Below, in pieces: positions 3,401-64,000 of a stretch of DNA of 64,000 bases. Below the pieces are notes generated by a model that saw nothing but the letters and a program-made list of their open reading frames with translations, was not told the origin of the DNA and did no database searches. The position numbers and the translations under genes were made by a program. This DNA comes from a virus: positions 10,928 to 74,927 of the IMG/VR virus record IMGVR_UViG_3300020469_000002, one strand, 5' to 3'. Each line of letters starts with the position of its first letter. The stretch's first letter is position 1.

Positions 3401-4093
3401 GCAAAGTGGGATGCCATCGGTCGAGAGTATTACCGTTCCGCTGCTCAGAACGGGGCACGCTCGGCAGAGAAGATGTCTGGGACTTCGAGCGTCAGCGCGC
3501 TGTCTGTTGATGCGACTGCGGGTGCTTATGCGAACGAAGCGATGTCGTACCTCACAGACCAACAGGGGCTCGTTGGTACGCTCAGAGAGCAGCTTCGCAG
3601 ACTTGTGAACAACGCAAGCGCGCCGAAGCAAGTGCGAAGCGTAGATCGCGACATCGACGACATCGACAACGACTCAGAGCGATCAGAAGTGCTCGCGACA
3701 ACCGGCGCGGTATTCGCTGCAAACGCACATCGAGTATCAAACTGGACGGGTAAGCTGGTTGGCTTGGCGAATCGGATGCTCGCAGAAACGCTTGAAAGTG
3801 TTGTCTCTATTGGAGACGGCAAAGCGACTGTCTGGTACTACGAGTGGGTGAGTGCTGGCGGTAGATCTTGTCCGATCTGTGCAGAAGAAGGAGTGCAGGG
3901 TTTTCGACGGCTCGACAGAATCGGTCGATACCCAGGGGAAGACACATACTGCGGCGCAAACTGCCGATGCGTGCTCGTTCTGTGGACAGAGGACGAGGTT
4001 CGAAGTGGGGCGGCAGAGTCACTCTCAACACCGGCTGGAGAGGTCTCGTCAAACCCGATGGAGACCAACTACTTGCCTCCTGGCATGATCTGA
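446..4093 (+). CDS. Portal protein fused to accessory domains and a C-terminal MuF-like head morphogenesis domain
   Basis: N-terminal ~460 aa resemble HK97-type portal (GLPILES, IWRVFGVSPTELG, GVMTVNEVRDELGLLPIEGGD). C-terminal WVSAGGRSCPIC...CGANCRC is a MuF-type motif. GGAGG precedes the start. Confidence 0.85.
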   Translation: MASKFTPAQPQIVSIGRKSIANTDRTVLSAGGWLSGPPRGVQDARERLGYSQAAQTSSLYESPESHYSFYRSYRSLMPSQYWSLYKSSPDVRVCVDSIVRRIATRDWIIKPTTDPRETDEYKRLSAKSAEVAQFLRVPNKDGQTWQELMTAMVTDLLVYDSGILEMVEDGEGNLTEVVSWLGSEWFEVIDTHGNLVRYDQTPENSNEPPVEVSPEKICAFKLFTNNRSTNGLPILESVITECLTVLLSSEHAMLALDANEIPPGLLVLGGVAGAAAERARADLQQMKGRDHRIRVVTSPEPNGIEAKWVELRHNIKDLEMLRVIDTMRKTIWRVFGVSPTELGETMNLARAAAEVQMDVSSSHLISPILETIQARVNAQILPRLLGEDAGKITFAFERGAVASAKERLQIAERSEILLRRGVMTVNEVRDELGLLPIEGGDIATVETNLGPVPLETLVVGIADSDEVQSAPQTEDQGSDASFEELSKLGDLSKAVQKNLRERAKKHNEKMKGRAAWRRTNAGTLAKVFDRGVGAYHNNPQSVRPGVASAEQWGYGRVDSFLHVLDKDKFRKGKHDTDLLPKQHPLSSKGEERGVVSRAPSFDRADLNTAWGWNDRQRDRLLGDPSDWRRYARAHLWNDGSGDERFGAYKFPIARVVKANDEDPKIVFRGVASVIGALNEDGKHESLTGVTLEEQRQVYARVASLYDDFGQEVPVVARLEDDRALRAVGDVDPTNFPASGDDKAVSLANSQWEIFDHKYAKKLKDEYPEIWKKGGNIRGNSQWRKLLPIVERGGSMKPKNDTEEGAIRLREAWNARHFKDHRIAGVIAQVKWLAVGSRGEVYMKKLIDEEKKKIDDKRSKHHHHDHDCEEHGCFGGRETSIPDARQRLRGMHPASRLIEIERAAAQTYLPSEWQPSSKFASVRTLDLSSLADEIAAYTRTAARLYADAAGDIESSIRAAYDASGKLSVQNAASVQRQIDDRLNALAAKWDAIGREYYRSAAQNGARSAEKMSGTSSVSALSVDATAGAYANEAMSYLTDQQGLVGTLREQLRRLVNNASAPKQVRSVDRDIDDIDNDSERSEVLATTGAVFAANAHRVSNWTGKLVGLANRMLAETLESVVSIGDGKATVWYYEWVSAGGRSCPICAEEGVQGFRRLDRIGRYPGEDTYCGANCRCVLVLWTEDEVRSGAAESLSTPAGEVSSNPMETNYLPPGMI

Positions 4094-4148
4094 ACCGACA
4101 TCGCTCAATCAACCGTATCAGAACCCCATTGGCCTTATCGAGATCTGA

Positions 4149-6641
4149 ATGATACTGTCATCTTCGGACGCCCAGCCAGCAGGCGCAGAACTCGAAATCA
4201 CGGGAGCGCCAAAAATGCACGTCCGCATCGATCTTCCATCTTGTAGTGGCGAGTCTACACAGCTTCATCTTCGTCAGATTGAATCTGTAGAAGAAAACAA
4301 GCGTCGATGGTCCGCCCGTTGTCGAATCCCGATGGCTGGCGTGCTCTCGGTTCGAGATTTGAGCGTTCGAAACGATGCTTCGGTTGTCTCTGCGGACGCA
4401 CAATGCGAAGACCGCGCATACCACGACGACGACGAAGAAAAGAAGAAGCGTTCCGACGAAATGGTCCTCGAAGGGATCGCAAGCTCGTCCTCGACGGACT
4501 GGCACGGAACCTCGATGTCTTTGTCTGCTTTGCAGCGTATGGCAGATCAGTTTCGATCTGGAGTGCCCTACGTCGCGACGCATCATGATGCAGAGTGGAT
4601 GCACATGCTCGGGCGCACGTTCGACGCAGAGGTCGTCTCCAGTCAGGCTGCGCGAGCAGCATACGGAGAGGATGTCGGATACGAGCTGAAGGTTCGAACG
4701 ACTCTGTTCATGGACGACGAGCGTTCGAAGAAGCTTCTGCGACACTTGCAGCGTGGTGTTCCTGTTGGTTGGAGCATCGGTGGCTGGTTCACGGAAATGG
4801 AAATCGTGACCAACGATCAGGACGAAGTGGAAGCGATGATTGTTCGAGAGGTTGAGCTTGATCACCTCGCGACAACTCGCACTCCATCAAACCCAGACTC
4901 TTTCGTTGCGAGCATCGTGGGTGATACCGGGGAAGCACTGCGCGCAGCACTTACTGGGGATGAGGTCAGTCGCAGTGCGTCTCCGGATTCCTCTAAGGTT
5001 TGGCGAGCCACAAGAGCATCAGGTCAAGTGCATGTTTCACTTCTCGATTCGGAGACTGGCAAGATGGATTCAGAAACCGATGATCGTGCGACTGTGGGAA
5101 TCGAAGCGCCAGAAGGTCATCACTGGATGGACTATGAAGACGGTCCAGTCTTGATGCCTGGAGAAGACACCGATCATGAGGGCGCAACCGACGTTTATGA
5201 GTTCGAGGTGGTCGAAAAGCATGATCCTGAACGCATGAATGAAGACACCGAGTATAGGTCGGATGATTGCGCGGAGACTCGTGAAGCGTCTGATTTTCAA
5301 GATCTGCCGGTAGCTGATGCTGGTACTCAGTGGGACTGGAGTACGGATGTCGCAAACGAGATTCTGTACTCGGAAGATCACAGCGAAGAAGATCCAAACT
5401 GGGTGATGTTCAAGAAGGCTCACTTGTGGGTTGACCCCGACAAAGATGAAACGCGCGAAGGCTACAAGCTGCCAATCGCGATGATGATGGACGGTGAGCT
5501 TAAAGTCGTTCCGCGTGCAGTCATCGCAGCGGTCGCGGCACTGAATGGTGCTCGTGGCGGTGTCGATATTCCAGAGTCAGACCGAAAAGAGGTCTACGAC
5601 TTGATCGTCAAATACTACGCATCGTGGGGCGACGACGATCCTCCAGATTTGATGGCATACGACGACATGGAGTCAGAGAAGCGGTCAGTCATGAGCTACC
5701 ACTCTCTCCCTCTCGAAGAGTCAGCGTCGCTGAACTGGGGTCGCGCAGCAGCCGACGAGGTTCTTGGCGCAGAACAAGACTGGCAGCGATTCCAGCTTGC
5801 ACATCTCGTCTACGACGCGTCTCGTCCAAACGAGCGAGAATCATACAAATACCCATTTGCCCGCATGTTCGATGGCGAGCTTCGCGCAGTGTTGGAGACG
5901 ATTCGATCGCTTCTCGACGCACTGAACGCAGGAGAGCTGGAGCTTGGTGAACCAGACCGAGCGAAAGCCCTCGAACATCTATCGCAGTATACAAGCGGCA
6001 TCGACGATGCCGAACTGTATCGTGAGTCCCTTGACAGTCGATCTCGACTGTGTTCCAGTGCCAATGAAGGGATCGACGCTCGACGAAGCGCAACCCCGGC
6101 ACAATCCACAACACCCCATGCCGAGGATGCAGCCATGTCCGACACCCCTGTCGAACTCCCTGTTGCAGCGCCCGAAGCGTCGCAGAGCGATCGTCTCGAC
6201 CGGATCGAGACCTTGCTGCTGCGCACGGTTGAGGCGATTAGCAACCCCACCGCAAGCGTCGAATCGACGCCCGAACCCCAGCCTGCCGTCGAGCAGATCG
6301 ATCCCGAGGTTACCGAGCTTCGCTCTCGCCTCGCTGCCGCTGAGCAGAAAATCGTTCAACTCGCACAGCAGCCGCAGCGTCGCGGTCGTCCCCACGTCGC
6401 TCATGCCGTGCTTGGTGCTCCCAGCACTGCCTTCGACGGCTTTGTTCGTAGTGCTGAAAAGCATCTTCCGAGCAACAGTGCCCTCGTCGCTGTTTGCCGC
6501 GAGCAGGCTCCGCGTCGCTCCGCAGAGCGCGATGCTCTCCCCACTCGCCAGTCTCTCGAAGCTGATCTTCGTGCAGTCCTGCACGCAGCGATGGCAGACG
6601 GTGTGATCACCAACCCCGACGCTCGCGCCGCTTGGCGCTAA
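4149..6641 (+). CDS. Prohead protease with inserted domains and C-terminal scaffold
   Basis: LEGIASSSSTDWHG, ATHH, GWSIGG and ELDHLATTRTPSNPDS match HK97-type protease motifs. Lies between portal and capsid. Start uncertain. Confidence 0.8.
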   Translation: MILSSSDAQPAGAELEITGAPKMHVRIDLPSCSGESTQLHLRQIESVEENKRRWSARCRIPMAGVLSVRDLSVRNDASVVSADAQCEDRAYHDDDEEKKKRSDEMVLEGIASSSSTDWHGTSMSLSALQRMADQFRSGVPYVATHHDAEWMHMLGRTFDAEVVSSQAARAAYGEDVGYELKVRTTLFMDDERSKKLLRHLQRGVPVGWSIGGWFTEMEIVTNDQDEVEAMIVREVELDHLATTRTPSNPDSFVASIVGDTGEALRAALTGDEVSRSASPDSSKVWRATRASGQVHVSLLDSETGKMDSETDDRATVGIEAPEGHHWMDYEDGPVLMPGEDTDHEGATDVYEFEVVEKHDPERMNEDTEYRSDDCAETREASDFQDLPVADAGTQWDWSTDVANEILYSEDHSEEDPNWVMFKKAHLWVDPDKDETREGYKLPIAMMMDGELKVVPRAVIAAVAALNGARGGVDIPESDRKEVYDLIVKYYASWGDDDPPDLMAYDDMESEKRSVMSYHSLPLEESASLNWGRAAADEVLGAEQDWQRFQLAHLVYDASRPNERESYKYPFARMFDGELRAVLETIRSLLDALNAGELELGEPDRAKALEHLSQYTSGIDDAELYRESLDSRSRLCSSANEGIDARRSATPAQSTTPHAEDAAMSDTPVELPVAAPEASQSDRLDRIETLLLRTVEAISNPTASVESTPEPQPAVEQIDPEVTELRSRLAAAEQKIVQLAQQPQRRGRPHVAHAVLGAPSTAFDGFVRSAEKHLPSNSALVAVCREQAPRRSAERDALPTRQSLEADLRAVLHAAMADGVITNPDARAAWR

Positions 6642-6652
6642 GGAGACCTACG

Positions 6653-7648
6653 ATGGCAAACCCAACTTGGGCAGCACTCGACGGACAGCGACGCGAGGCG
6701 TTTCAGCGTGCAGTCAACGTGTCGAACGCTGGTTCGTACCTGATCCAGAACTACACAAACCGCATCATCGAGCAGCTTTCGGTTCGCGAGTTTGGTGCTC
6801 TCGGAACTATGGACCGCCGACCCGGTCAGGGCTCGCAGGCCATGGTCAACCGACGCACCGGCGCGACGATGAACGCAGCGAACGTGTGGGTGTCGGACAC
6901 TGTGGCTCTTACTGAGTCCACTGGTTCCTACGATCAGGCGACCTTCACCTACATGACTCTCGCCACTCGTGGCAAGGTCACTCGGAAGATGCGCGCTCGC
7001 GGTCGTTCGTACCTCGACATTCTCGCGGACGAAATGACCCACAAGCTCGACGACTTCAACAACTCGCTGGAAAGCGCGATCTTCACTGGCGACTCGGGTG
7101 CCATCTCGACTCAGATGGACGGTCTGCTCACGCAGATCAACGCCGTCTCGACTCAGGTGATCGCGAACACCAACGCAACTGTTGGCGACTCGCTCACCTT
7201 GTCGAAGCTCGATGAAGCAATCGACGCTGTTCGTGGAGCAGGCAATCGTTCAGATCTTGCGATCTACGCATCGTTCCTCGGCGCCCGCAAGCTGAACGCT
7301 GCACTTCAGGCTGATCAGCAGTTCTCCAACATGGTTGAAGTGGCTGCTGGCTTCCGCGTGCGGACCTACGATGGCATCCCGATCATCGTTTCGACTGGTC
7401 TCGGTGACGACCTCGGTTGGAGCGGTAGCGCGCTGGACAAGCTCGCTGGCGAGACCACCGAGCCGACCACTTCGCTCGTGATCGTCAACAAGCGCCACGC
7501 ATGGCTGGAGGAGCTTACGCCCACCACCATGATGCCGCTTGCTCGCGACGACAGCCAGTTCGAGCAGTTCGACATCTTCTGGGATGGCGCTTGCGTGCTG
7601 GGCAACACCAGCGGTGCAGCAATCCTTGGCGGAATCTCGATCTCCTGA
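6653..7648 (+). CDS. Major capsid protein
   Basis: Follows the protease/scaffold; AGGAGA RBS; about 330 aa; ESAIFTGD...MDGLL and YDGIPII motifs typical of HK97-fold capsids; followed by a terminator. Confidence 0.85.
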   Translation: MANPTWAALDGQRREAFQRAVNVSNAGSYLIQNYTNRIIEQLSVREFGALGTMDRRPGQGSQAMVNRRTGATMNAANVWVSDTVALTESTGSYDQATFTYMTLATRGKVTRKMRARGRSYLDILADEMTHKLDDFNNSLESAIFTGDSGAISTQMDGLLTQINAVSTQVIANTNATVGDSLTLSKLDEAIDAVRGAGNRSDLAIYASFLGARKLNAALQADQQFSNMVEVAAGFRVRTYDGIPIIVSTGLGDDLGWSGSALDKLAGETTEPTTSLVIVNKRHAWLEELTPTTMMPLARDDSQFEQFDIFWDGACVLGNTSGAAILGGISIS

Positions 7649-7679
7649 TCGTCTCGCGCACACTGCGCGGTCGTTCTTT

Positions 7680-7710
7680 ACGCGCCGACGGCATGTTCGT
7701 CGGCGCGTTT
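7680..7710 (+). terminator. Rho-independent terminator after the capsid gene
   Basis: ACGCGCCGACG-GCATGTT-CGTCGGCGCGT followed by TT. Confidence 0.7.
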
Positions 7711-7762
7711 GTGCGTCTGGACTAAAAAGATTTCCGATGATACAGTTCGCATCGGAGGTCAG

Positions 7763-8236
7763 ATGGGTATCCAGACCGAGGTTCCTGAGCGTGGCACTTA
7801 CGAGCACGTTTTGATTCGCAAGGATCGCGACGCAAGTGTCGAGCGCGGTGTTCCCATGCGGTTCGTTTGCTACGGCGAAAACACCGTATCTCGCAGCGTA
7901 GAGTGGCAAGGGAATCGTGTACACACGATTTTTCTTCGAGACCATGTTTCTGCGAAACGCGCATGGCGAAAAGGGTGGATCGACATCACTGATCCATGGT
8001 TTGCGATGCTCGACGATCAGATCTGTGAGCCGACGAGCATTCCACAGCAGGCAATCTTTGAGGCTCTTGACGACAAAGAGTGGAAGTCGAAAGCTGAGAT
8101 CGTGAAGCAGGCTCAGATCAAGGACAGTGAGTGGCGAACAGCCATTCGCACTCTGATCGAAAAAGATCTTGTGAAGGTCACGGGTGCGACGAATCGAAGC
8201 TACCGATACCGTAGAACGGATGTGATCGATGGCTGA
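7763..8236 (+). CDS. Hypothetical protein with C-terminal winged-helix domain
   Basis: GGAGG RBS; QQAIFEAL...KSKAEIVKQAQIKDSEWRTAIRTLIEKDLVKVTG...YRY fits a wHTH pattern. Confidence 0.6.
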   Translation: MGIQTEVPERGTYEHVLIRKDRDASVERGVPMRFVCYGENTVSRSVEWQGNRVHTIFLRDHVSAKRAWRKGWIDITDPWFAMLDDQICEPTSIPQQAIFEALDDKEWKSKAEIVKQAQIKDSEWRTAIRTLIEKDLVKVTGATNRSYRYRRTDVIDG

Positions 8237-16964: not shown

Positions 16965-17151
16965 TCTATAGTGTCGCTCACAGTGCGAGATTCGCGCTGT
17001 GAGCGATTCTGATCGCTGCACTGACGAATGATGCACGCTCGACGCTTGCGCTCACACAGCGAGCGGCGAGCGTCGCTTCTGCGCGTCTGCGGTATGTCGC
17101 TGGACTACATGCTCGGCAAACGCTACACTGCGACAACGCCCTGGAGGTGAA

Positions 17152-35425: not shown

Positions 35426-35968
35426 TTAGAACGGGATGTCAGACCCGCCCACCGCCGAGTAGCTACCGCCACCGCTTGCAGGAGCAGCACTCTTCTTCTT
35501 CGCTCCTTCTGCGTAGTCTTCGAGCGCGACCACCAGTTCTTCCATCTGCTTCGTGATCTCGCCCTTGTAGGGATCGATCTGACCCTTCGCAAGCTGCGGG
35601 CGCTCTGCGTTCTTGTTGTTCACCCACGTCGAGACGCCGCACTGCACGGGACGGGAGGTCAGAATGTCCCGAGTCCGCTCCTGATCGCTTGCGTCCCACG
35701 ACTCGTTGTGACCAACAGCACGAGCGAATCGAGACAGCTTCCATGCAGCGCCAGCAGTCAGGTAGAACCGCTCGTACATGCGAGCCCCAGCCTGTTCGCC
35801 TTGAACACAGCAGAACAGCACTTCGATCACGGTGTCTCCGCGCTTGCTCTGATTGTAGTTCAGATCCGCAGCCCAGCAGACATGATTGCCGGCGGTGAGC
35901 CAAGGCGGTGCGCTCACTCCAGAGCCGTTGGTAGAAGAGTCATCTTGCGGGTTGATGATGAATGACAT
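35426..35968 (-). CDS. Single-stranded DNA-binding protein (DUF669-like)
   Basis: Acidic SDIPF C-terminus; adjacent to a Sak4-like ATPase. Confidence 0.75.
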   Translation of the reverse strand: MSFIINPQDDSSTNGSGVSAPPWLTAGNHVCWAADLNYNQSKRGDTVIEVLFCCVQGEQAGARMYERFYLTAGAAWKLSRFARAVGHNESWDASDQERTRDILTSRPVQCGVSTWVNNKNAERPQLAKGQIDPYKGEITKQMEELVVALEDYAEGAKKKSAAPASGGGSYSAVGGSDIPF

Positions 35969-36027
35969 CGAGTGTCCTCACTTTGCGCATTTGCGCGGTT
36001 GTTGCGGCAAAGCCGCGATTGAATGTT

Positions 36028-38448: not shown

Positions 38449-39372
38449 TCATGCAGAAGCCGCAGTCTCAGTAGACTCGATTGCGGGCTCGCTGACGGGC
38501 TGAGTCTTCGAGAGCAAGATCGTGAGGAACTTGGTCTCGGAGTCCTTTTTGACTTTGACGTTGAAGCCGCGTTCGATCAGCATCTTGCCAGCCTGACCGC
38601 TGCTGTACCAGATTGCGCGATGCTTGGTCCACGACTTGGGTGCATCGAAGCCCAGAGTCGAGCACTCGATGACGAGCGTTCCATCATCCGTTTCGACTGC
38701 TGCTGCCATGAACTGATCGAATCGCGCGATCGTGTTGGGACGCGGTTGACTCTTCGTCTTCTTCTTGGTCGGCTTGTCCGCGAGCAGGTCTGCCACAACC
38801 GCACTCTTCGCGATCGCTTCTGCTCGCTTCTTCTGCTTCTCGTCGGCTTCCTGAGACTGCTCGCTGTCGGCACTTTCGACAACCATATCGAACTTGACCA
38901 CGGTCACGTCGGAGTCGTCTTCGACCGACACCTCGGGCTCGGCTTCATCCTCGGTGTTCGGTGCTTCCATCGCTTCGAGAACTTCGCGAGTGTTCACAGT
39001 GCGAACATCGACGATCTCTCCACCCTGCACGGTCTCGATGACGAGATCCCCATCGTTGTCGAACGAGGCGTACCCCTCTTCCGTGTGAGCGACTTCTTCG
39101 TCATGCTCGACAGTCGAGTCTCCGATGATTGCGGCTTCGAAAAGCTCCTGATGATTCTTGACGCTGATTGGTCCTTCGAAGCCCGAACTCCGAATCTTCG
39201 CAACCTTCGTCGCGTAGGTATACACGTCTTTCTTGTTCCAGCCATCGCTCTTCCGAGCAGCCTTGACCCCACCCGACGCTTTCGCATCGCGCAGAGCACT
39301 CATAAGGTAGGCGAGAGAGGTTCGAGCGTTGATGCTCTCGATCATGGTCTTCTTGGGCTTGGTAGCAGGCAT
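38449..39372 (-). CDS. Hypothetical early protein, paralog of 62934-63473
   Basis: Own promoter; shares YATK and KHRA..Y..G..G..L.ER motifs with 62934-63473. Confidence 0.75.
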   Translation of the reverse strand: MPATKPKKTMIESINARTSLAYLMSALRDAKASGGVKAARKSDGWNKKDVYTYATKVAKIRSSGFEGPISVKNHQELFEAAIIGDSTVEHDEEVAHTEEGYASFDNDGDLVIETVQGGEIVDVRTVNTREVLEAMEAPNTEDEAEPEVSVEDDSDVTVVKFDMVVESADSEQSQEADEKQKKRAEAIAKSAVVADLLADKPTKKKTKSQPRPNTIARFDQFMAAAVETDDGTLVIECSTLGFDAPKSWTKHRAIWYSSGQAGKMLIERGFNVKVKKDSETKFLTILLSKTQPVSEPAIESTETAASA

Positions 39373-41207: not shown

Positions 41208-43466
41208 GTGACTTCAGTGAGAGAGAACACGGTTCCCGAACAGATTGAACCGTATCAAGAGCGCAGCATCGCGTCCAGCCTTGTTGCTATTGCAGACGGT
41301 CGAAACGCAGCAGCGGTCGGGTTGAAGGCGTTTCTGTGGGTATGCGCGATCGCTAAGAGAGCGGACTGGCAGAAGACATCCTGCGGCTTGATGATGGAGC
41401 TTTGCCCGGCGTATCTTCGAACAATCGAGGGCGTGACTCAATGGGCGGGAAGGTGTGGCTGGAACGCCGCTCGTGATCTTCTCAAATGGCAGGAGATTCA
41501 GCCCGATAGAGCCAGAGAGCTTGGAGCAGAGCTTAGATTCGTCGGCAAAGGCAGAAGAAGAGGTCGACTGATCCTGCTTTCGGAAGAGCAGCTTCGAAAC
41601 ATCGAGACTGCCCACACAAAACTGAAGCGTCTCGAATCCTCTCACGAATGTGAGAACGAAACCGACAACTCTTGCAGACTGGAGCACGTAGCGAATCTTC
41701 CTCGAAAAGAGCTTCTCAACAGGAGATCATTCGCTGTCTGCTGCCCCGCTCACAATGACGCTCACCCTTCACTGGTTGTTTGGCCGAACGCAGACAAGCG
41801 AACGGGCGGAGCACGTTGCATGGTGTGTGAGAGAGAAGGGCGGCCAGCTACTTGGGCGGTGAGGTTTGAAGATTCAGAAATCAAAATGTTTCGTCCGCGG
41901 GCAGCAGACTCTTGGTCGAGCATGTCAAGTCAGTCGAGCTTTTCCCTCTCTCGCAACAATAAAGACCCCCAAGCGAGCACAGCGCAGCAGATCACCCGCT
42001 CGCGTGTTGACTCTTTCGTCTCTACCCAAGAGAGCAGCGCGACACAGATCAACGCACTGATCGAGGGCTACACTCATGCAGATGGGTACTCGACTGCTCG
42101 AAGAGTGACCGGTCGGGCTCGCAGAGATCTGATCTCGACTCTGAAGTGGCACGATCAACGAAGTGCAGGTCCAGCGGCAAGCACTCGTGCCGCTATGCTT
42201 TGCTCGTTTATGATGGAAAACGAGAGTCGAGTCGAAATGCTGTGCCCGTCTCGGTTGATCTCTGTCTCGAATATGCGACCGACAGCAAGAGATCAGTTCG
42301 GCAAGCCAATCTCATGGAAAGCTGCTCGTCAACGATGGATCTTGCTCGACATTGACGACATCGATCTTTCCGCGTGCGATCTCGACAAGTGCGCTGAGAG
42401 AATCGCGAAAGTGGTCGAACAGAACGAGCACTGCTCTGGTCGCTCTGCGATTGTGCAGACCAGCCCGACCGGGCTTCAGGTGTGGTGTGAGTTGAGCCGC
42501 GTAAGACATTCACCAGAGAAGTGGCATCGACTTCCAGCCGTCGTTGACTGGTACAGCAGGCTTGGGGAGAAAGTGCTGAAAGCCGCCCGTAGCGAAAACG
42601 CAGACGGGGGCTATTTGGACATGTCAGCGTGTGCAGCGGGCAGATTCGGCAGACGACCCGGCTGGCGGCTCTATTCCGATGGCTCAGTCTTTCGAGCCCG
42701 ACTCCTGCTCACGGTTGATTTCAACCGCGACGTTCAGCCACCCGTCGTCGTCGAAGCATCGGCCGATGTCCCCTGCTTCTCGCATGTTGATGCTCGCGCT
42801 ACCGGCAGGAGCCCGTCGGTTGAGGCATTTGAAGTGCCACCATGCGTGCCATACTCTCGACAGAGTGTTCCACGGAAGTACGAAAGAGACTCGACCTTGG
42901 GAAAAGTGCAGAAGCACAGCCGCGAACCCACCCTCACGATTCCACTGATCGAGTCGAAGAGCTTGATGCTCGTGAAGGTTCGAGAGAGACCATCTTTTAG
43001 AACCGCAGTTCTTCGCTTCGAGCATGAAGGCGATCCCGCTCGAAATGGCGATGTAGTCGGGCGGCCCGGCAGAATCGTAGACAGCGACAAACTGTCCAGG
43101 GGCTTTCGTTTGTCGAATGATCCTCATGGTGGGAGGCGTTCGAACCACACACGCTCGTTTTTCCGCAACGTAGCGGGAGTGATGCCACTCCAAAAGCGAC
43201 TCAAACGCCTTCCCTCGGTTCGCGTGAGACCGCGACTTCACTACGACCGCCTCTTTCGTCGGCGCGCGACTCTCATTCCGTCCCCGTCAACGATGATCTG
43301 GCAGTTGACTGCGTTGCACAACCAAATCAGCTTCGCCCAGGTAGGACTTCGACCACCGCTGCCTGTTTTCCACTGTGAGCATGACTGCGGTGAGATTTCC
43401 AAGATCTGCGCGAGCCCGGCATTTGAGACCTCGAATCGATCGCAGTACAAATCCGCAAGCTCGTAG
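41208..43466 (+). CDS. Zn finger plus AEP/prim-pol-like protein; C-terminus overlaps two antisense genes
   Basis: CCPAHND..PSL...CMVC; LLDIDD; VQTSPTGLQVW; RRPG. Confidence 0.6.
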   Translation: MTSVRENTVPEQIEPYQERSIASSLVAIADGRNAAAVGLKAFLWVCAIAKRADWQKTSCGLMMELCPAYLRTIEGVTQWAGRCGWNAARDLLKWQEIQPDRARELGAELRFVGKGRRRGRLILLSEEQLRNIETAHTKLKRLESSHECENETDNSCRLEHVANLPRKELLNRRSFAVCCPAHNDAHPSLVVWPNADKRTGGARCMVCEREGRPATWAVRFEDSEIKMFRPRAADSWSSMSSQSSFSLSRNNKDPQASTAQQITRSRVDSFVSTQESSATQINALIEGYTHADGYSTARRVTGRARRDLISTLKWHDQRSAGPAASTRAAMLCSFMMENESRVEMLCPSRLISVSNMRPTARDQFGKPISWKAARQRWILLDIDDIDLSACDLDKCAERIAKVVEQNEHCSGRSAIVQTSPTGLQVWCELSRVRHSPEKWHRLPAVVDWYSRLGEKVLKAARSENADGGYLDMSACAAGRFGRRPGWRLYSDGSVFRARLLLTVDFNRDVQPPVVVEASADVPCFSHVDARATGRSPSVEAFEVPPCVPYSRQSVPRKYERDSTLGKVQKHSREPTLTIPLIESKSLMLVKVRERPSFRTAVLRFEHEGDPARNGDVVGRPGRIVDSDKLSRGFRLSNDPHGGRRSNHTRSFFRNVAGVMPLQKRLKRLPSVRVRPRLHYDRLFRRRATLIPSPSTMIWQLTALHNQISFAQVGLRPPLPVFHCEHDCGEISKICASPAFETSNRSQYKSASS
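42684..43241 (-). CDS. recU: RecU-like Holliday junction resolvase
   Basis: ANRGKAFES, RTPPT, PDY, MLEAK, LHEHQ..RL, GGFAAVLL. Confidence 0.8.
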   Translation of the reverse strand: MKSRSHANRGKAFESLLEWHHSRYVAEKRACVVRTPPTMRIIRQTKAPGQFVAVYDSAGPPDYIAISSGIAFMLEAKNCGSKRWSLSNLHEHQALRLDQWNREGGFAAVLLHFSQGRVSFVLPWNTLSRVWHAWWHFKCLNRRAPAGSASINMREAGDIGRCFDDDGWLNVAVEINREQESGSKD

Positions 43467-46481: not shown

Positions 46482-46531
46482 AGTGTCCTCACAAGCGGCG
46501 ATAACGAAGCGCGATCGCTTCTCGCCTCTCA

Positions 46532-55709: not shown

Positions 55710-55878
55710 GATCAAGAGCTGATCGATGTTCTCGCAGTTTTGCCGATTCAGCACTGTATCTCGGGTAAGCGATCGCGTATAAGAGAGACGCGTTGACACA
55801 GTGCGATCGCGCTGTGTGATCGCTACATACGAACAGCAGCGATCAACCCGTTTGCTGCATTGACACGAGGACACTGCT

Positions 55879-56373
55879 ATGTCTGAAACTGAAATCTTGT
55901 GGGGTCACCGAAGAGCGGGCGACACCGCTCAATCCGTCGATTCCGATCCCCAAGCTGTGATTGTCGGAGAGCCTGACTGGTTCTACATTCCCGACGACCC
56001 GACGATGAAAGAGTTTGCGGGGCGAACCGCTCGACGAGTCGCTTCTGCCCGACTGCCGATCATCCCCAACTTCGTGAGCGAAGGGGAAGACTATCGAATG
56101 GCGGAACCGCCGTTCATCGACAACGACGGAAAAGATGTCAAGTGGCACGCCCTCGCGGTTGACGACTACTTGATCAATCTCGTCATCGTCGAGGGAGTCG
56201 CGGAAGGCTTCGCGATGATCGAAGTGAAAGATCAGATGGTCGCAACGATCGTCGCTCTCGCTTCGCTCGAAGCTGCGGAACGAGAAGTGTTGGTTCACTG
56301 CGGTTCGGAAGAGCAAGCTCAGAATGTGTTGGATCTGCTTCGCGACGCAGAACTGGGGGGCGACGATGTTTGA
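55879..56373 (+). CDS. Hypothetical early protein
   Basis: GAGGACACT motif before the ATG. Confidence 0.7.
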   Translation: MSETEILWGHRRAGDTAQSVDSDPQAVIVGEPDWFYIPDDPTMKEFAGRTARRVASARLPIIPNFVSEGEDYRMAEPPFIDNDGKDVKWHALAVDDYLINLVIVEGVAEGFAMIEVKDQMVATIVALASLEAAEREVLVHCGSEEQAQNVLDLLRDAELGGDDV

Positions 56374-58180: not shown

Positions 58181-58231
58181 CACAGAGCGTCAGAAGAGAT
58201 CGCAGCGCGCGACTCGACGCAAGAGGACACG

Positions 58232-58672
58232 ATGATGCTCGCAACGAACAATGGGCGCGTTGAGCGCGATGATGGGTACAACGACGACGACAACTTTGAC
58301 ATGCGGGTGTTGGGCAACTTCATGCTCGACATGGTTCGCAGCAGCAGTCCGATGGACTTGCTGCTCGCCCGAAACATGACGATCAAAGCAAACTGGATGC
58401 TTCGTCAGATCTCGCTGATGGACTTCTCTGCTGCGTGGTGCGACGACGAGCAGAAGCGGGAGGCGGTTTTCGCTCTCGACGTTCTGCAAGCTGTTGTGGT
58501 CGTGGTCGTGGAGTCGATGCTCAATCAGAGCAAGACGGAGTGGCCGGATGAGAACGCGAAGTCGGACGACGAGCTTCGTCAGACTTATCACCGGGCACTC
58601 ACGATGCAGCATGAGATCGTCGTCGCGATGTCTGGACTCGACGAAGTGCTTTGCGGACAGAGCCCACGATGA
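58232..58672 (+). CDS. Hypothetical early protein
   Basis: GAGGACAC motif. Confidence 0.7.
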   Translation: MMLATNNGRVERDDGYNDDDNFDMRVLGNFMLDMVRSSSPMDLLLARNMTIKANWMLRQISLMDFSAAWCDDEQKREAVFALDVLQAVVVVVVESMLNQSKTEWPDENAKSDDELRQTYHRALTMQHEIVVAMSGLDEVLCGQSPR

Positions 58673-59459: not shown

Positions 59460-59512
59460 CTGAGAGTCAGAAGCGATCGCGCGCTGCGAAACGCAGACAT
59501 GAGGACACTACA

Positions 59513-59893
59513 ATGACAAGTCTGCCCACAGACTACTTCGACACTCTCAGAGACTTCATCGCGGATCAACTCAGCTTCGTCAATCACGAGGAAATGTGCG
59601 GATCGCTGTATGTCGATGTCTCGGACGAGATCACGATCTTCATGACGCCCGAGTTTGAGGGCACGCCGGGAATGGACTTCAGTGTCGAAGAAGTGGACAA
59701 CAACGCTTGCGAGAGTGGGCTCCCTGACTGGGTGAAGAGTCTCGAAGCGGGCAACATCGACTGTAGCTGGACGGGAGATCTTGAAACGGACTGCAAAAGC
59801 TACAGAGCGGAGTTCGCGAAAGTGGTTCGCAAGTACGTCGATCAAGTGCGGTTCCGTCACTTCGTCTACGATCACAGCTTCATCACGGAGTAG
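59513..59893 (+). CDS. Acidic early protein, paralog of the C-terminus of 60128-60781
   Basis: Shared GSLYV, TP.FE, VEE and WT.D...D...YRA. Confidence 0.75.
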   Translation: MTSLPTDYFDTLRDFIADQLSFVNHEEMCGSLYVDVSDEITIFMTPEFEGTPGMDFSVEEVDNNACESGLPDWVKSLEAGNIDCSWTGDLETDCKSYRAEFAKVVRKYVDQVRFRHFVYDHSFITE

Positions 59894-61433: not shown

Positions 61434-61452
61434 GGAACCCTCGTCTCGACTC

Positions 61453-61474
61453 GCCCGCGAAAGCGGGCTTTTTT
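61453..61474 (+). terminator. Rho-independent terminator
   Basis: GCCCGC-GAAA-GCGGGC-TTTTTT. Confidence 0.9.
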
Positions 61475-61762
61475 GCTTCTGTAGTCAGTCGACTCTGAGC
61501 CCAGGAGTGGATCTACGTGAGCACAGGAGTGGGCCACGACTCACGCGTCTGAGCGCTGGACCGCGATCGATCAAAAACGATCCACTCTAGATCGCTGAGT
61601 TCAACCGAGAAAATCAGCGACGAGCTCCAGATTGGATTTCCAAAGGCAGGGCGAGCCGATCCACAAAAAAGCGTCCAACCAGGGAGCAAAGTCCATCGAG
61701 CCCAGGAAAAAAATCGTCCACCCGCAGCAGCTTGTCCGACAGCCCACCCTGAGTCCAGGCAT

Positions 61763-61814
61763 GGGGAGTCCAGCGCTGGGGAGTCCAGCGCTGGGAAGCC
61801 CAGGTCCAGCGCTG
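61763..61814. repeat. 15-bp tandem repeat containing a CCAGCGCTGG palindrome
   Basis: GGGGAGTCCAGCGCT x2 plus a degenerate third copy. Confidence 0.8.
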
Positions 61815-62239
61815 ATCCACTTTCTCGATCCGCTTTTCGTGATCCGTTTTCGTCGTGATCGATCCGAGATTCTGCTGTGATCCGATTTTCTGACGAAAAC
61901 GACGAGAATCAGCGATCCATCATTACTTACGTGCATTCGTGTAGTTCTCGATCCGCGATCGATCGCTATCTCGTGAGACGCTGTGAGATGCACTGTGAGT
62001 CCGATTCTTCGAGAACGTGCGTCTGCTCTACACTCTCGACGATTCGAGATGCTGTGAGACGCTGTGAGAGCGCGCGCTGATTCGCTGAGAGCGAGCGTCT
62101 GCTCTGTGTTCTCGTCGATCTCGTCGTGCTGTGTCGCGCTGTGTCGCGCTGTGTCTCAGCTACAGAGAATCTCAGAGCGCGAGATTCGCGCTGTGAGCGA
62201 CGCAAGCACACTTGCGCGACGTTTCACACTAGCGAAGCG

Positions 62240-62570
62240 TCTACAGACGCTCACAGACGCTCACAGACGCTGCAAACGCTATCTATGACGCTGTGTAGAA
62301 CGTCAGATCGCAGCGTCGCAGATCTCACGATCTCGCGAGATCAGCAGAGAAGCGCGTCGCAGTGCACGCTCTCAGCGAATCGCGCGCTCTGTGTCTCAGC
62401 GCGTCTCACAGCGTCTCACAGCGCGACACGCTCACAGCGCGACTCTCAGCGCGTCTCAGCGCGTCTCACAGCGTCTCACAGCGTCTCACAGCGTCTCAGC
62501 GCGTCGCAGTGCGTCGCAGCGTCTCAGCGTCTCAGCGTCTCAGCGAGTCGCAGCGAGTCGCAGCGAGAGA
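62240..62570. repeat. Degenerate 8-10 bp tandem repeats (GCGTCTCACA / GACGCTCACA / GCGTCTCA)
   Basis: Directly visible; reverse-complement copies at 61974-62070. Confidence 0.9.
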
Positions 62571-62578
62571 CGAGATCA

Positions 62579-62836
62579 GAATTGTCTGATTCGACAAGAT
62601 CGAATTGTCTGATTCGACAATCTGAGAATTGTCTGATTCGACAAGATCGAATTGTCTGATTCGACAATCTGAGAATTGTCTGATTCGACAAGATCGAATT
62701 GTCTGATTCGACAATCTCAGAATTGTCTGATTCGACAAGATCGAATTGTCTGATTCGACAATCTCAGAATTGACTGATTCGACAAGATCGAATTGTCTGA
62801 TTCGACAATCTCAGAATTGACTGATTCGACAAGATC
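62579..62836. repeat. Tandem array of 11 alternating 23/24-bp units (47-bp higher-order repeat)
   Basis: GAATTG(T/A)CTGATTCGACAA followed alternately by GATC or TCT(G/C)A. Confidence 0.95.
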
Positions 62837-62892
62837 GAATTGTCTCAGAGAGCAATTCTGATCTTGTCGAATCTCAGATCTCAGAACGCAGA

Positions 62893-62914
62893 AGCGCGCC
62901 CCGGGGGGCGCGCT
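62893..62914 (-). terminator. Hairpin downstream of 62934-63473
   Basis: AGCGCGCCCC-GG-GGGGCGCGCT. Confidence 0.55.
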
Positions 62915-62933
62915 GTGTCTCGACTCGACGCTC

Positions 62934-63473
62934 TCAGCTTGCAGCGCGCTTCAGAGTCAGAGTCACGTTCTTCGTCGTCTTGCAGCGCGCTGCGCTCACA
63001 GTGTACTTACGCTCTGCGAGAATCAGCCCGATACGCCCGTTCTTGTAGAAAACTGCTCTGTGCTTGCGAATCGACCCGGGCAGATCTGCGAGCGACTTCT
63101 GAGACATGTCAATCACGATCGTCTGCGTCTTCTCGCACTCGACGCCCGCTTCAATGATTCGATCAACGCGTGCGTTCAGTGCTGCGAGCGACTTCTCACG
63201 ACGCGCTGCGCTCTTCTCTGCGCTCTGCTGCTTCTTCGTCGTCTCTGCTGCGAGCGTCGCAGCGAACGACTTTTGAGCTTCTGCGACGACTGCATCGATC
63301 GTCTTCATCGTCACGACTGCATCGCTCTTGAGTGCGACTCGCAGCGTTTCGATCTTCGTCGCGTAGTCAACGAGATCGCTCTTCTTCGTCTTCTTGCCCG
63401 GGGTCTTCGCGTTCTCGTCTGCTGCGATAAGTGCGATGATAGCTGCGTTCTTGAGTGCTGCAAAGTTAGTCAT
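62934..63473 (-). CDS. Basic Lys/Ala-rich protein, paralog of 38449-39372
   Basis: Own promoter, GAGAACACT-ATG start and downstream hairpin; visible homology to 38449-39372. Confidence 0.8.
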   Translation of the reverse strand: MTNFAALKNAAIIALIAADENAKTPGKKTKKSDLVDYATKIETLRVALKSDAVVTMKTIDAVVAEAQKSFAATLAAETTKKQQSAEKSAARREKSLAALNARVDRIIEAGVECEKTQTIVIDMSQKSLADLPGSIRKHRAVFYKNGRIGLILAERKYTVSAARCKTTKNVTLTLKRAAS

Positions 63474-63552
63474 AGTGTTCTCTCTGCTCGTTTGAGCGTC
63501 TGTGTCTCTGTCAGTGCGCTGCGACACTGCGTCGCTCGCTTCTGACGCTCTT

Positions 63553-63581
63553 GTTCTACATTCGTGATTACTGAATGTCGA
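63553..63581 (-). promoter_or_regulatory. Early promoter
   Basis: TCGACA-N17-TAGAAC with TG; GTCAGAAGCG leader. Confidence 0.6.
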
Positions 63582-63855
63582 AAAGATTCTCTAAATCGAC
63601 GAACGCTATTTCGCGAGGATCTCGCCCTCATCAGGGTTTAGACGCTCAAAAAAAAACGCGAGATTCTGCGATCGCGTGCGATCTTGTCGCGCTTAGTCAG
63701 TGCGCGACGACTCGCGAGAAGAGACGAGAAATCGAGCGCATATTTCGTCAGATCGGGCTGCTCGTCAATCTTCTCGACAGATCCGTCTCTGAGATCGTCT
63801 GATTCGCTCGATTCTGAGATCCGAGAGAGAGCGCTCTACGATCTGCTCGCTTCTC

Positions 63856-64000
63856 GACTCACAGACTCACAGACTCACAGACGCTCACAGACGCTCACAG
63901 ACTCACAGCGACTCACAGCGACTCACAGCGACGCTCTCAGCGTCTCAGCGTCTCACAGACGCTCACAGCGTCTCAGCGTCGCTCACAGACGCTCACAGCG
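63856..64000. repeat. Degenerate 8-10 bp tandem repeats (CTCACAGA / CTCACAGACG / CTCACAGCGA), running off the window
   Basis: Same family and orientation as 62240-62570. Confidence 0.9.

What the first reader, a model, noticed from the sequence alone, without database searches (positions are those of the whole stretch)
62003..64000. A GG/CC-forbidden zone: 896 bp with none, and a gene carrying them only where Gly/Pro force it
Seen: 62003-62898 has no GG or CC on manual reading, although GC-rich DNA would give roughly 100 or more under base independence (part of this stretch is tandem repeat, which inflates the effect). The non-repetitive gene 62934-63473 has GG/CC in only five clusters (63027, 63036, 63075, 63145, 63397). 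All are at Gly/Pro codons and all in CCCG/CGGG context, and the protein has no Trp. Its start motif is GAGAACACT instead of the usual GAGGACAC. Inference: something reads or marks CC/GG and this region must be invisible to it. Candidates are a host nuclease or PAM-dependent system acting on first-injected DNA, or a phage CC-directed base modification that must be absent from DNA handled by host or packaging proteins.
Basis: partly seen in the sequence, partly recalled or inferred. Interest (0 to 1): 0.9.

Follow-up and report, generated by a model that had tools for sequence, protein, structure and literature searches.

The report
GG/CC-free control region in marine phage
A 75-kb uncultured marine phage keeps about 3 kb of repeat-rich control DNA and one small gene almost free of the DNA steps GG and CC, even changing that gene's amino acids, so something unidentified probably reads this two-letter word and must be kept off this stretch.

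Summary
The contig is a circular assembly, and the depleted zone crosses its junction. It runs from window 61813 to 64000 and on through genome 1-1030, about 3.1 kb. GG/CC-rich non-coding DNA borders it sharply on both sides.

In the 1.6-kb core there are no isolated GG/CC doublets, against 87 expected. All nine runs that remain read CGGG/CCCG. In the outer parts, 23 of the remaining runs sit in GGATC/GATCC, a motif array.

Repeats inflate the effect but do not explain it. The single gene has 15 GG/CC, against 29.6 +/- 4.4 under a calibrated dicodon-aware control (0 of 5000 trials reached 15). It has few Gly and Pro codons and no Trp. It has replaced two Trp that its internal paralog and the one outside relative keep.

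The gene uses more GG/CC than Gly and Pro force. The GAGAACACT leader is also found at the paralog.

The phage has no DpdA, QueC or C5-methylase gene. AATT, purged from the rest of the genome, is concentrated in the zone. The factor that reads GG/CC is unidentified, the physical ends could not be mapped, and the close relatives could not be fetched.

This scan noted similar zones before in other phages.

The parts
61434..61812 (.). Left border: GG/CC-rich non-coding tract (15.6 per 100 bp). It holds a terminator hairpin at 61453-61468 (+), GATCCAC words at 61579 and 61658 (a third at 61814 lies just outside this part), and a 15-bp repeat x3.5 at 61751-61803 with the palindrome CCAGCGCTGG at 61770 and 61785.
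61813..62002 (+). Transition: the only GG/CC are seven same-strand GATCC words (61814-61950) plus one GAGTCCG.
62003..62898 (.). 896 bp with no GG/CC at all, GC 53%.
62046..62200 (-). Short-word arrays in reverse orientation (CTGTGAG type). They form an imperfect large inverted repeat with 62364-62465. The stretch includes a 22-bp element at 62179-62200 that is identical to 16985-17006.
62243..62565 (+). Array A: about 20 units of 8-12 bp ending in CAG (CGTCTCAG, CGTCTCACAG, CGAGTCGCAG and similar).
62576..62873 (.). 47-bp tandem repeat x5.7 (98% matches), equal to 11 half-units with TTGWC-N6-GACAA arms, GC about 38%. The last unit is inverted (62853-62873). It carries 13 of the genome's 17 AATT sites.
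62893..62912 (-). GC hairpin GCGCGCCCC/GGGGCGCGC just after the gene's stop; candidate terminator (-27.6 kcal/mol with flanks). It contains one CCCGGG.
62934..63473 (-). The only confident gene of the zone: 179 aa, Lys-rich, 5 Gly, 2 Pro, 0 Trp. It is a paralog of 38449-39372(-). It has 15 GG/CC, all in CGGG/CCCG context.
63474..63857 (.). Leader and upstream region of the gene. It is GG/CC-poor (2-3 per 100 bp), and the residual words include GGATC and GATCC.
63858..64000 (+). Array B: the same CTCACAG/CTCAG word family. It continues over the assembly junction to genome position 147 (window 63924-64000 repeats genome 1-77).
38449..39372 (-). Internal paralog (307 aa) in the replication/recombination module, with normal GG/CC (87; dicodon z = +2.0). 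It serves as a natural control.

Best explanation
The zone is a cis-acting control module of the phage. It holds two arrays of short CAG-ending words flanking one small gene, a 47-bp inverted-repeat array, about 20 CGGATC sites and DnaA-box-like words at the border. It is under purifying selection against isolated GG/CC doublets on both strands.

Most likely mechanism (inferred, not shown): a double-strand-DNA-acting factor recognises the doublet everywhere in the genome, where GG/CC is already at 0.62 of expectation. This module must work before, or independently of, whatever protects the rest of the genome, so it is written without the word. This is the logic of the first-step-transfer DNA of phage T5.

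Where GG is unavoidable or functional, it appears only as CGGG/CCCG or inside GGATC. These contexts may be exempt, for example because they overlap methylation sites. That last point is speculation.
For: Shown:
- The ban is real after repeat collapse, and variant repeat units never create GG/CC although 29% of substitutions would.
- GG/CC is the best-fitting word among all degenerate 4-mers.
- The core has 0 doublets against 87 expected, while runs of 3 or more are only about 3-fold down and are 9 of 9 C-GGG.
- 23 of 44 residual runs are GGATC/GATCC, against 2.8% genome-wide. CGGATC is 14-fold enriched, and TCGACGGATC occurs 6 times, only in the zone.
- The gene has 15 GG/CC against 29.6 +/- 4.4, with 0 of 5000 trials reaching 15, under a calibrated dicodon model. 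Its paralog scores z = +2.0.
- G+P+W make up 3.9% of the protein, against 9.4% in the paralog and 12.5% genome-wide.
- Two Trp kept in the paralog and in P0123 are Ile and Phe in the zone copy.
- The borders are sharp, with GG/CC-rich tracts on both sides.
- GG/CC is depleted genome-wide, as are many palindromes, which shows a lineage that evolves by word avoidance.
- Genes between the zone and TerL are also depleted (z = -2.1 to -4.2).

Parallel: T5/BF23 resist restriction and CRISPR unless sites lie in the first-step-transfer DNA. They also have a long repeat-rich non-coding region at its border (PMC10644984).
Against: - No reader is identified, and no known nuclease or PAM has a specificity that spares CGGG.
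- AATT is almost absent from the genome (3 sites in 71.7 kb) but has 14 sites in the zone. That is the opposite of what a restriction-naive leading end predicts, if the AATT purge is due to restriction.
- GG/CC-rich non-coding DNA lies directly beside the zone.
- The physical ends are unknown. The depth of the zone contig is 157 against 147, so it is not a collapsed long terminal repeat like that of T5.
- Conservation could not be tested. Relatives with TerL identity of 73% or less show no such zone in the 4-10 kb upstream of TerL that is held. However, the orthologous region was not identified in them.
Confidence: 0.4

Rival explanations
1. The phage modifies its own DNA in a short GG/CC-containing context. 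The candidates are the Mom-like enzyme, the ATPase-GNAT fusion next to the terminase, and the ParB-fused N6/N4 methylase. The control module must stay unmodified so that host polymerase, initiators or the phage's own site-specific proteins can read it.
For: A Mom family domain is present (E = 1e-25), and one N6/N4 methylase. Mu Mom has a comparably degenerate 5-base target (own knowledge). Earlier notes of this scan tie similar zones in other phages to DNA modification (unchecked). GG/CC-rich tracts directly at both borders would fit heavily marked boundaries.
Against: No TGT/DpdA, QueC, C5-methylase or ThyA-like gene is found in any frame. The known Mom target is adenine, not G or C. Genome-wide depletion of the supposed target word (0.62) is not expected for a protective mark.
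Confidence: 0.25
2. The ban is a requirement of the DNA-protein architecture itself. The module is an origin, packaging or partition-like site, and the GG/CC step is reserved as a signal in CGGATC and CCCG words. Alternatively, the step is mechanically disfavoured for wrapping or bending. Either way the background is kept free of it.
For: Arrays of the same words flank the gene on both sides, as iterons flank a rep gene. There are inverted arrays, GATCCAC words and a 38%-GC repeat block. The residual GG/CC sits almost only in repeated motifs. AATT shows the mirror pattern, being allowed only here. The best structural neighbours of the gene's C-terminal domain include RepE and Pi winged-helix domains, but weakly (Z = 5.2 and 4.8).
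Against: Reducing search noise for a 6-10-bp site does not require purging every GG/CC doublet over 3 kb, or changing amino acids of a protein. The structural matches are in the noise range (Z below 8). Similar zones noted elsewhere in the scan are coding cassettes without such arrays (unchecked).
Confidence: 0.2
3. There is no selection on GG/CC. The stretch is a by-product of amplifying a few GG/CC-free words, in a genome whose general signature already disfavours GG/CC, or of a local mutational bias.
For: Only 157-236 of the 896 free bases are unique at k = 7-8. The genome-wide GG/CC ratio is 0.62. The enriched steps in the zone are GA/TC, AG/CT and CG.
Against: The unique part alone gives P of about 1e-8. 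Repeat variants avoid GG/CC. The non-repetitive gene is depleted against a calibrated control and has lost conserved Trp. The residual runs are 9 of 9 CGGG in the core. Other true intergenic regions keep 3.6-8 GG/CC per 100 bp. About 330 kb of unrelated viral contigs have no GC-rich gap of 150 bp or more.
Confidence: 0.07

Closest known systems
First-step-transfer (pre-early) DNA of phage T5/BF23 with its repeat-rich injection-stop region
   Same: A delimited few percent of the genome lacks the words that host nucleases read, while the rest of the genome carries them. A long non-coding region rich in direct and inverted repeats lies at its border (PMC10644984).
   Different: T5's region is a 10-kb terminal repeat with many genes, and it lacks specific 4-8-bp sites. 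Here the banned word is a dinucleotide doublet and there is only one gene. There is no sign of a collapsed long terminal repeat. The position relative to the physical ends is unknown.
Restriction-site and PAM avoidance in phage genomes (e.g. PMC4246573, PMC4687349)
   Same: A short word is under-represented beyond codon bias, and this is attributed to selection by host DNA-targeting immunity. The same genome purges CTAG, AATT and many 6-mer palindromes.
   Different: Known cases are genome-wide and moderate. Here the depletion is local, almost absolute, specific to doublets (CGGG is tolerated) and reaches amino-acid composition.
Iteron-type plasmid origins (F RepE, R6K Pi, P1 RepA: iterons - rep gene - iterons, DnaA boxes, GATC clusters)
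   Same: The gene is flanked on both sides by arrays of the same short words. GATC is dense (21.7 per kb). DnaA-box-like GATCCAC words are present. The neighbours are replication genes of the paralog.
   Different: The units are 8-12 bp rather than 17-22 bp. The protein has 179 aa, with only weak fold resemblance to winged-helix initiators. No known origin is free of a dinucleotide.
Motif-specific DNA hypermodification in phages (Mu Mom; DpdA 7-deazaguanine)
   Same: These enzymes have short degenerate targets, and a Mom family gene lies 1.3 kb from the zone.
   Different: No DpdA or preQ0 genes are present. No modification with GG/CC specificity is known for Mom. No modification data exist for this phage.

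Membership tests
T5-type first-step-transfer DNA | Lies at a physical end of virion DNA, inside a long direct terminal repeat | tested here: inconclusive
   Only assembled contigs could be laid, so no read ends are visible. The zone contig has depth 157 against 147 for the main contig, so there is no 2x signal of a collapsed long repeat. The 77-bp terminal overlap of the record is an assembly overlap.
T5-type first-step-transfer DNA | Lacks nuclease target words that the rest of the genome carries | tested here: inconclusive
   Met for GG/CC doublets (0 against 87 expected in the core). The opposite holds for AATT (14 sites in the zone, 3 in the remaining 71.7 kb).
T5-type first-step-transfer DNA | Bordered by a long non-coding region rich in direct and inverted repeats | tested here: met
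   Window 61434-62933 is 1.5 kb without a coding signal and is full of arrays and inverted repeats. The T5/BF23 description is in PMC10644984.
T5-type first-step-transfer DNA | Enters the cell first and is expressed before the rest | not testable with these tools
   There is no culture and there are no RNA or time-course data.
PAM or restriction-site avoidance | Word under-represented against a codon- and dicodon-aware expectation | tested here: met
   15 observed against 29.6 +/- 4.4, with 0 of 5000 trials reaching 15.
PAM or restriction-site avoidance | Every occurrence of the recognised word is counter-selected | tested here: not met
   For a plain GG/CC or NGG word, all five Gly codons are written so as to give CGGG, which holds two GG. 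The terminator uses C4/G6 runs.
PAM or restriction-site avoidance | Word matches a system of the host | not testable with these tools
   The host is unknown. The phage is known only from marine metagenomes.
Iteron origin with initiator gene | Arrays of direct repeats on both sides of the gene | tested here: met
   Array A lies at 62243-62565 and array B at 63858 to genome 147, and both use the same word family.
Iteron origin with initiator gene | Initiator with winged-helix DNA-binding domains | tested here: inconclusive
   The C-terminal 84 aa were modelled at pLDDT 89.7. The best matches have Z = 5.7 (AFV1-102), 5.2 (RepE 158-247) and 4.8 (Pi), all in the noise range. Foldseek gave no hit with E of 0.001 or better.
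DpdA / 7-deazaguanine phages with a modification-free island | TGT-family DpdA gene | tested here: not met
   PF01702 finds nothing at E up to 1 in six frames of the complete genome, while the controls hit in 14 of 14 genomes.
DpdA / 7-deazaguanine phages with a modification-free island | preQ0 pathway gene (QueC) | tested here: not met
   PF06508 finds nothing at E up to 1.

The most novel reading that the evidence does not exclude
Cells, or many phages themselves, possess a still undescribed activity that reads isolated GG/CC doublets on double-stranded DNA. Unrelated phages, including this one, which has no deazaguanine genes, each keep a small 'boot' module written without that word. This module is the clearest non-coding example.
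Probability: 0.35. Interest if true: 0.9.

Novelty: new variant of a known kind. Interest (0 to 1): 0.75.

Why it matters
Word avoidance in phage genomes is normally explained by known restriction sites or PAMs of 3-8 bases. A sharply bounded ban on a two-base step is different. Here it is strong enough to change a protein's amino acids, it has defined exempt contexts, and no known enzyme accounts for it. That points to an unrecognised DNA-reading activity or DNA mark in phage infection.

This genome adds three useful things to the question:
- The phage lacks the 7-deazaguanine genes that earlier notes of this scan linked to such zones.
- It has an internal paralog that serves as a natural unrecoded control.
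- It shows a precise rule: no isolated doublets, only CGGG and GGATC. That rule can be turned directly into recoding and binding experiments.

Tried and rejected
The contigs of the two closest relatives (TerL P0003 at 87% and P0004 at 80%) could therefore not be fetched, and conservation of the zone remains untested.
- IMG/VR and JGI relatives with TerL identity of 73% or less show no GG/CC-poor window in what is held. Their orthologous region was not identified, and several contigs end about 7 kb upstream of TerL, so I do not count this as evidence.
- The genome-contig scan found no relative. The genome search could not open the metagenome records.
- Exact-word scans of IMG/VR for the 16-bp and 18-bp repeat cores gave only single chance hits. 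I used those loci as a background control.
- Searches for the zone protein found only itself, its paralog and one 222-aa relative. Pfam and PHROGs found nothing. The Atlas gave no usable hit. Fold searches gave nothing significant.
- Sequencing runs exist only as contigs. They are identical in sequence, show no variants and no read ends.
- The promoter scan did not exceed the shuffled controls.
- Simple codon resampling was rejected as a control because it places every gene below expectation. It was replaced by a model conditioned on the neighbouring residues.
- The dispersed 'islands' of 128-137 bp elsewhere in the window are about what the Markov model allows once per genome. I do not count them, except for the one that shares the 22-bp element.
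- Density of Mu-type Mom sites is unremarkable in the zone.
Full report
**Check of the observation**

The window has no GG or CC between 62001 and 62899. The next longest gaps in the window outside the zone are 137 and 128 bp. Windows of 500 bp elsewhere hold 32-66 GG/CC. A first-order Markov chain trained on the rest of the genome gives P = 3e-36 for 896 bp.

Only 157-236 bases are unique at k = 7-8. Even 200 unique bases give about 1e-8. In the free stretch, 29% of all single substitutions (33% of transitions) would create GG/CC. Yet the two arrays contain about ten different unit variants each, and none creates GG/CC. About 330 kb of unrelated viral contigs fetched for other reasons hold no GC-rich GG/CC gap of 150 bp or more. 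A scan of all degenerate 4-mers ranks NGGN as the most depleted word class in the zone (65 against 294 expected). It ranks HGGH/DCCD first in the core (0 against 87). GG/CC is therefore the right description.

**True extent**

The record is 74,927 bp with a 77-bp identical overlap at its ends, which means a circular assembly of 74,850 bp. The window is genome 10928-74927. The depleted zone runs from window 61813 across the junction to genome position about 1030, roughly 3.1 kb. Its GG+CC frequency is 0.010, against 0.047 in the rest.

Both borders are sharp, and GG/CC-rich non-coding DNA lies beyond them. GG/CC per 100 bp (genome mean in genes 9.45):

| Segment | GG/CC per 100 bp |
|---|---|
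| Window 61434-61812 | 15.6 |
| Window 61813-62002 | 4.2 |
| Window 62003-62898 | 0 |
| Genome 78-1030 | 2.6 |
| Genome 1031-1480 | 12.2 |

Apart from one gene, no frame between genome 72361 and 2277 scores as coding with a codon model trained on the phage's long genes.

**Anatomy, left to right**

- A terminator hairpin at 61453-61468 ends the upstream operon.
- GATCCAC words and a 15-bp repeat with CCAGCGCTGG palindromes follow.
- Seven same-strand GATCC words come next.
- Arrays of CTGTGAG-type words in reverse orientation (62046-62200) face forward arrays (62243-62565). Together they form a large imperfect inverted repeat.
- A 47-bp tandem repeat x5.7, with TTGWC-N6-GACAA arms and a final inverted unit, lies at 62576-62873.
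- A GC hairpin lies at 62893-62912.
- The gene 62934-63473 is on the minus strand.
- Its leader region follows.
- Array B, of the same word family, runs from 63858 to genome 147.
- About 0.9 kb follows with CGGATC/GATCCG sites in both orientations.

The 22-bp element at 62179-62200 is identical to 16985-17006. There it forms a 9-bp inverted repeat between tail genes.

**The residual words**

In the 1,614-bp core (62003-63616) there are nine G or C runs. All have length 3 or more, and all have C before the G-run (CGGG/CCCG). Genome-wide, 75% of runs are doublets, and only 11% of runs fall in that context. Doublets are therefore abolished (87 expected), while longer runs are only about 3-fold down.

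All five Gly codons are written to give CGGG (three GGG, two G|GGC). The genome-wide figure for Gly codons is 16.5%.

In the whole zone, 23 of 44 runs are GGATC/GATCC, against 2.8% genome-wide. CGGATC is 14-fold enriched. TCGACGGATC occurs six times, and only here. No doublet followed by T occurs in 3.1 kb, against 55 expected.

The gene is therefore not written with the minimum of GG/CC. It has 15, while 7 would suffice. What is avoided is the isolated doublet.

**The gene**

Its product (179 aa) is a true paralog of the 307-aa product of 38449-39372(-) (BLASTP 2e-13; alignable end to end with an acidic insert in the longer copy). A profile search of 1.8 billion representatives found only these two and one 222-aa protein, P0123.

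G+P+W make up 3.9% of the zone protein, against 9.4% in the paralog and 12.5% in the genome. Two Trp conserved in the paralog and in P0123 (SW.KH, A[VI]WY) are Ile and Phe in the zone copy.

Plain codon resampling puts all genes below expectation, because the genome avoids GG/CC at codon junctions. I therefore used a model conditioned on the neighbouring residues, which is calibrated (median z = 0). It gives 29.6 +/- 4.4 against 15 observed, with 0 of 5000 trials reaching 15. The paralog scores z = +2.0.

The leader GAGAACACT is shared with the paralog, so it is not evidence of recoding.

The C-terminal 84 residues fold confidently (pLDDT 89.7). Their best neighbours are weak: AFV1-102 with Z = 5.7, RepE winged helix 5.2, Pi 4.8, and LAGLIDADG-type domains. 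A DNA-binding role is plausible but not shown.

**Genome context**

This is a tailed phage. It has a portal, a tape measure, a GpA-type large terminase, a primase-helicase, a Sak4-like ATPase, a PD-(D/E)XK nuclease, a helicase, a MoxR-VWA pair and rml-like genes. It also has a ParB-fused N6/N4 methylase and a Mom family domain 1.3 kb from the zone. TGT/DpdA, QueC, C5-methylase and ThyA-like genes are absent in all six frames.

The whole genome avoids words. CTAG has 1 site. AATT has 3 sites in 71.7 kb, against about 105 expected. Many 6-mer palindromes are absent. Every GG-containing trinucleotide stands at 0.47-0.81 of expectation. AATT is the mirror case, because 14 of its 17 sites lie in the zone.

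Genes between the zone and the terminase (genome 3884-7822) are also GG/CC-depleted, with z between -2.1 and -4.2.

**Occurrence and relatives**

Near-identical sequence is present in marine metagenomes and viromes of several studies. Only contigs are held, so there are no variants and no read ends. The zone contig has depth 157 against 147 for the main contig, so it is not a collapsed long terminal repeat.

The nearest cultured terminases are SPO1-like, at about 32% identity. Metagenomic relatives with 80-87% TerL identity exist. More distant relatives show no zone in what is held, but the orthologous region was not identified.

**Interpretation**

Selection against isolated GG/CC doublets in this module is well supported. 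What exerts it is not.

- A host nuclease or surveillance activity acting on DNA that must function first (T5 logic, PMC10644984) fits three things: the genome-wide depletion, the lineage's general habit of word avoidance, and the repeat-rich non-coding border. It is weakened by the AATT pattern, by the tolerated CGGG and by the unknown ends.
- Self-modification fits the Mom-like and GNAT genes and the GG/CC-rich borders. It has no enzyme of matching specificity here, and it does not predict genome-wide depletion.
- An architectural reading, with GG/CC reserved as a signal in CGGATC and CCCG words within an iteron-like origin, fits the anatomy and the AATT mirror. It does not explain the recoding of the protein.
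- A neutral by-product of repeat amplification is essentially excluded.

Earlier notes of this scan report GG/CC-free cassettes in at least a dozen other phage genomes, often linked to deazaguanine genes (unchecked). This phage lacks those genes, which argues against that link being general.

Noticed in passing
whole genome; AATT sites at window 62580-62854: AATT has 3 sites in 71.7 kb outside the zone (about 105 expected) and CTAG has 1. CTGCAG, AAGCTT, CTCGAG, GACGTC, CAGCTG and AACGTT have 0-1 sites against 14-66 expected. 14 of the 17 AATT sites lie in the zone, 13 of them in the 47-bp repeat block. Several TerL relatives of different GC content also have AATT and CTAG near zero.
   Followed up: partly
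L001:3884-7822 (genome coordinates, outside the window): The genes between the zone and the large terminase are also GG/CC-depleted under the calibrated dicodon model: 4817-5764 z = -4.2, 3884-4123 z = -2.7, 6635-7822 z = -2.6, 6087-6656 z = -2.1. The depleted domain may therefore be wider and graded.
   Followed up: partly
window 16985-17006 and 62179-62200: An exact 22-bp copy is shared by the two places. At 16.98 kb it lies inside a perfect 9-bp inverted repeat (CGCTCACAG N13 CTGTGAGCG) between tail genes. This is a candidate operator using the same half-site word as the zone arrays.
   Followed up: partly
window 35426-35990, 46482-46500, 55860-55880, 58215-58235, 59495-59515: A leader motif, GAGGACAC(T/G) 3-7 nt before the ATG, recurs at five or more genes of the replication and early arms. 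The paralog pair uses GAGAACACT instead.
   Followed up: partly
window 62501 to 63912: One run has a contig that joins array A directly to array B, skipping 1,410 bp (the 47-bp repeats and the gene). This is either an assembly-graph path through shared words or a natural deletion variant produced by recombination between the arrays.
   Followed up: no
L001:1080-1180: The GG/CC-rich right border holds G7 and C6 runs that can pair. It also holds the palindromes GGATCAGCGATCC and GAGGATCCTC, apparently the site of the one GGATCC counted outside the zone. A TTTTCCACA word (8 of 9 matches to a DnaA box) and T-runs are present. It is a candidate boundary, terminus or terminator element.
   Followed up: no
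window 41208-43466 and 22745-27400: Large open reading frames of 752 aa and 1,551 aa have no Pfam or PHROGs match. No DNA polymerase was recognised among the proteins scanned.
   Followed up: no
L002 and L004 (IMG/VR relatives): Two relatives' contigs both end about 7 kb upstream of their TerL. In this genome the repeat-rich zone starts at that distance, so similar repeats may have broken those assemblies.
   Followed up: no
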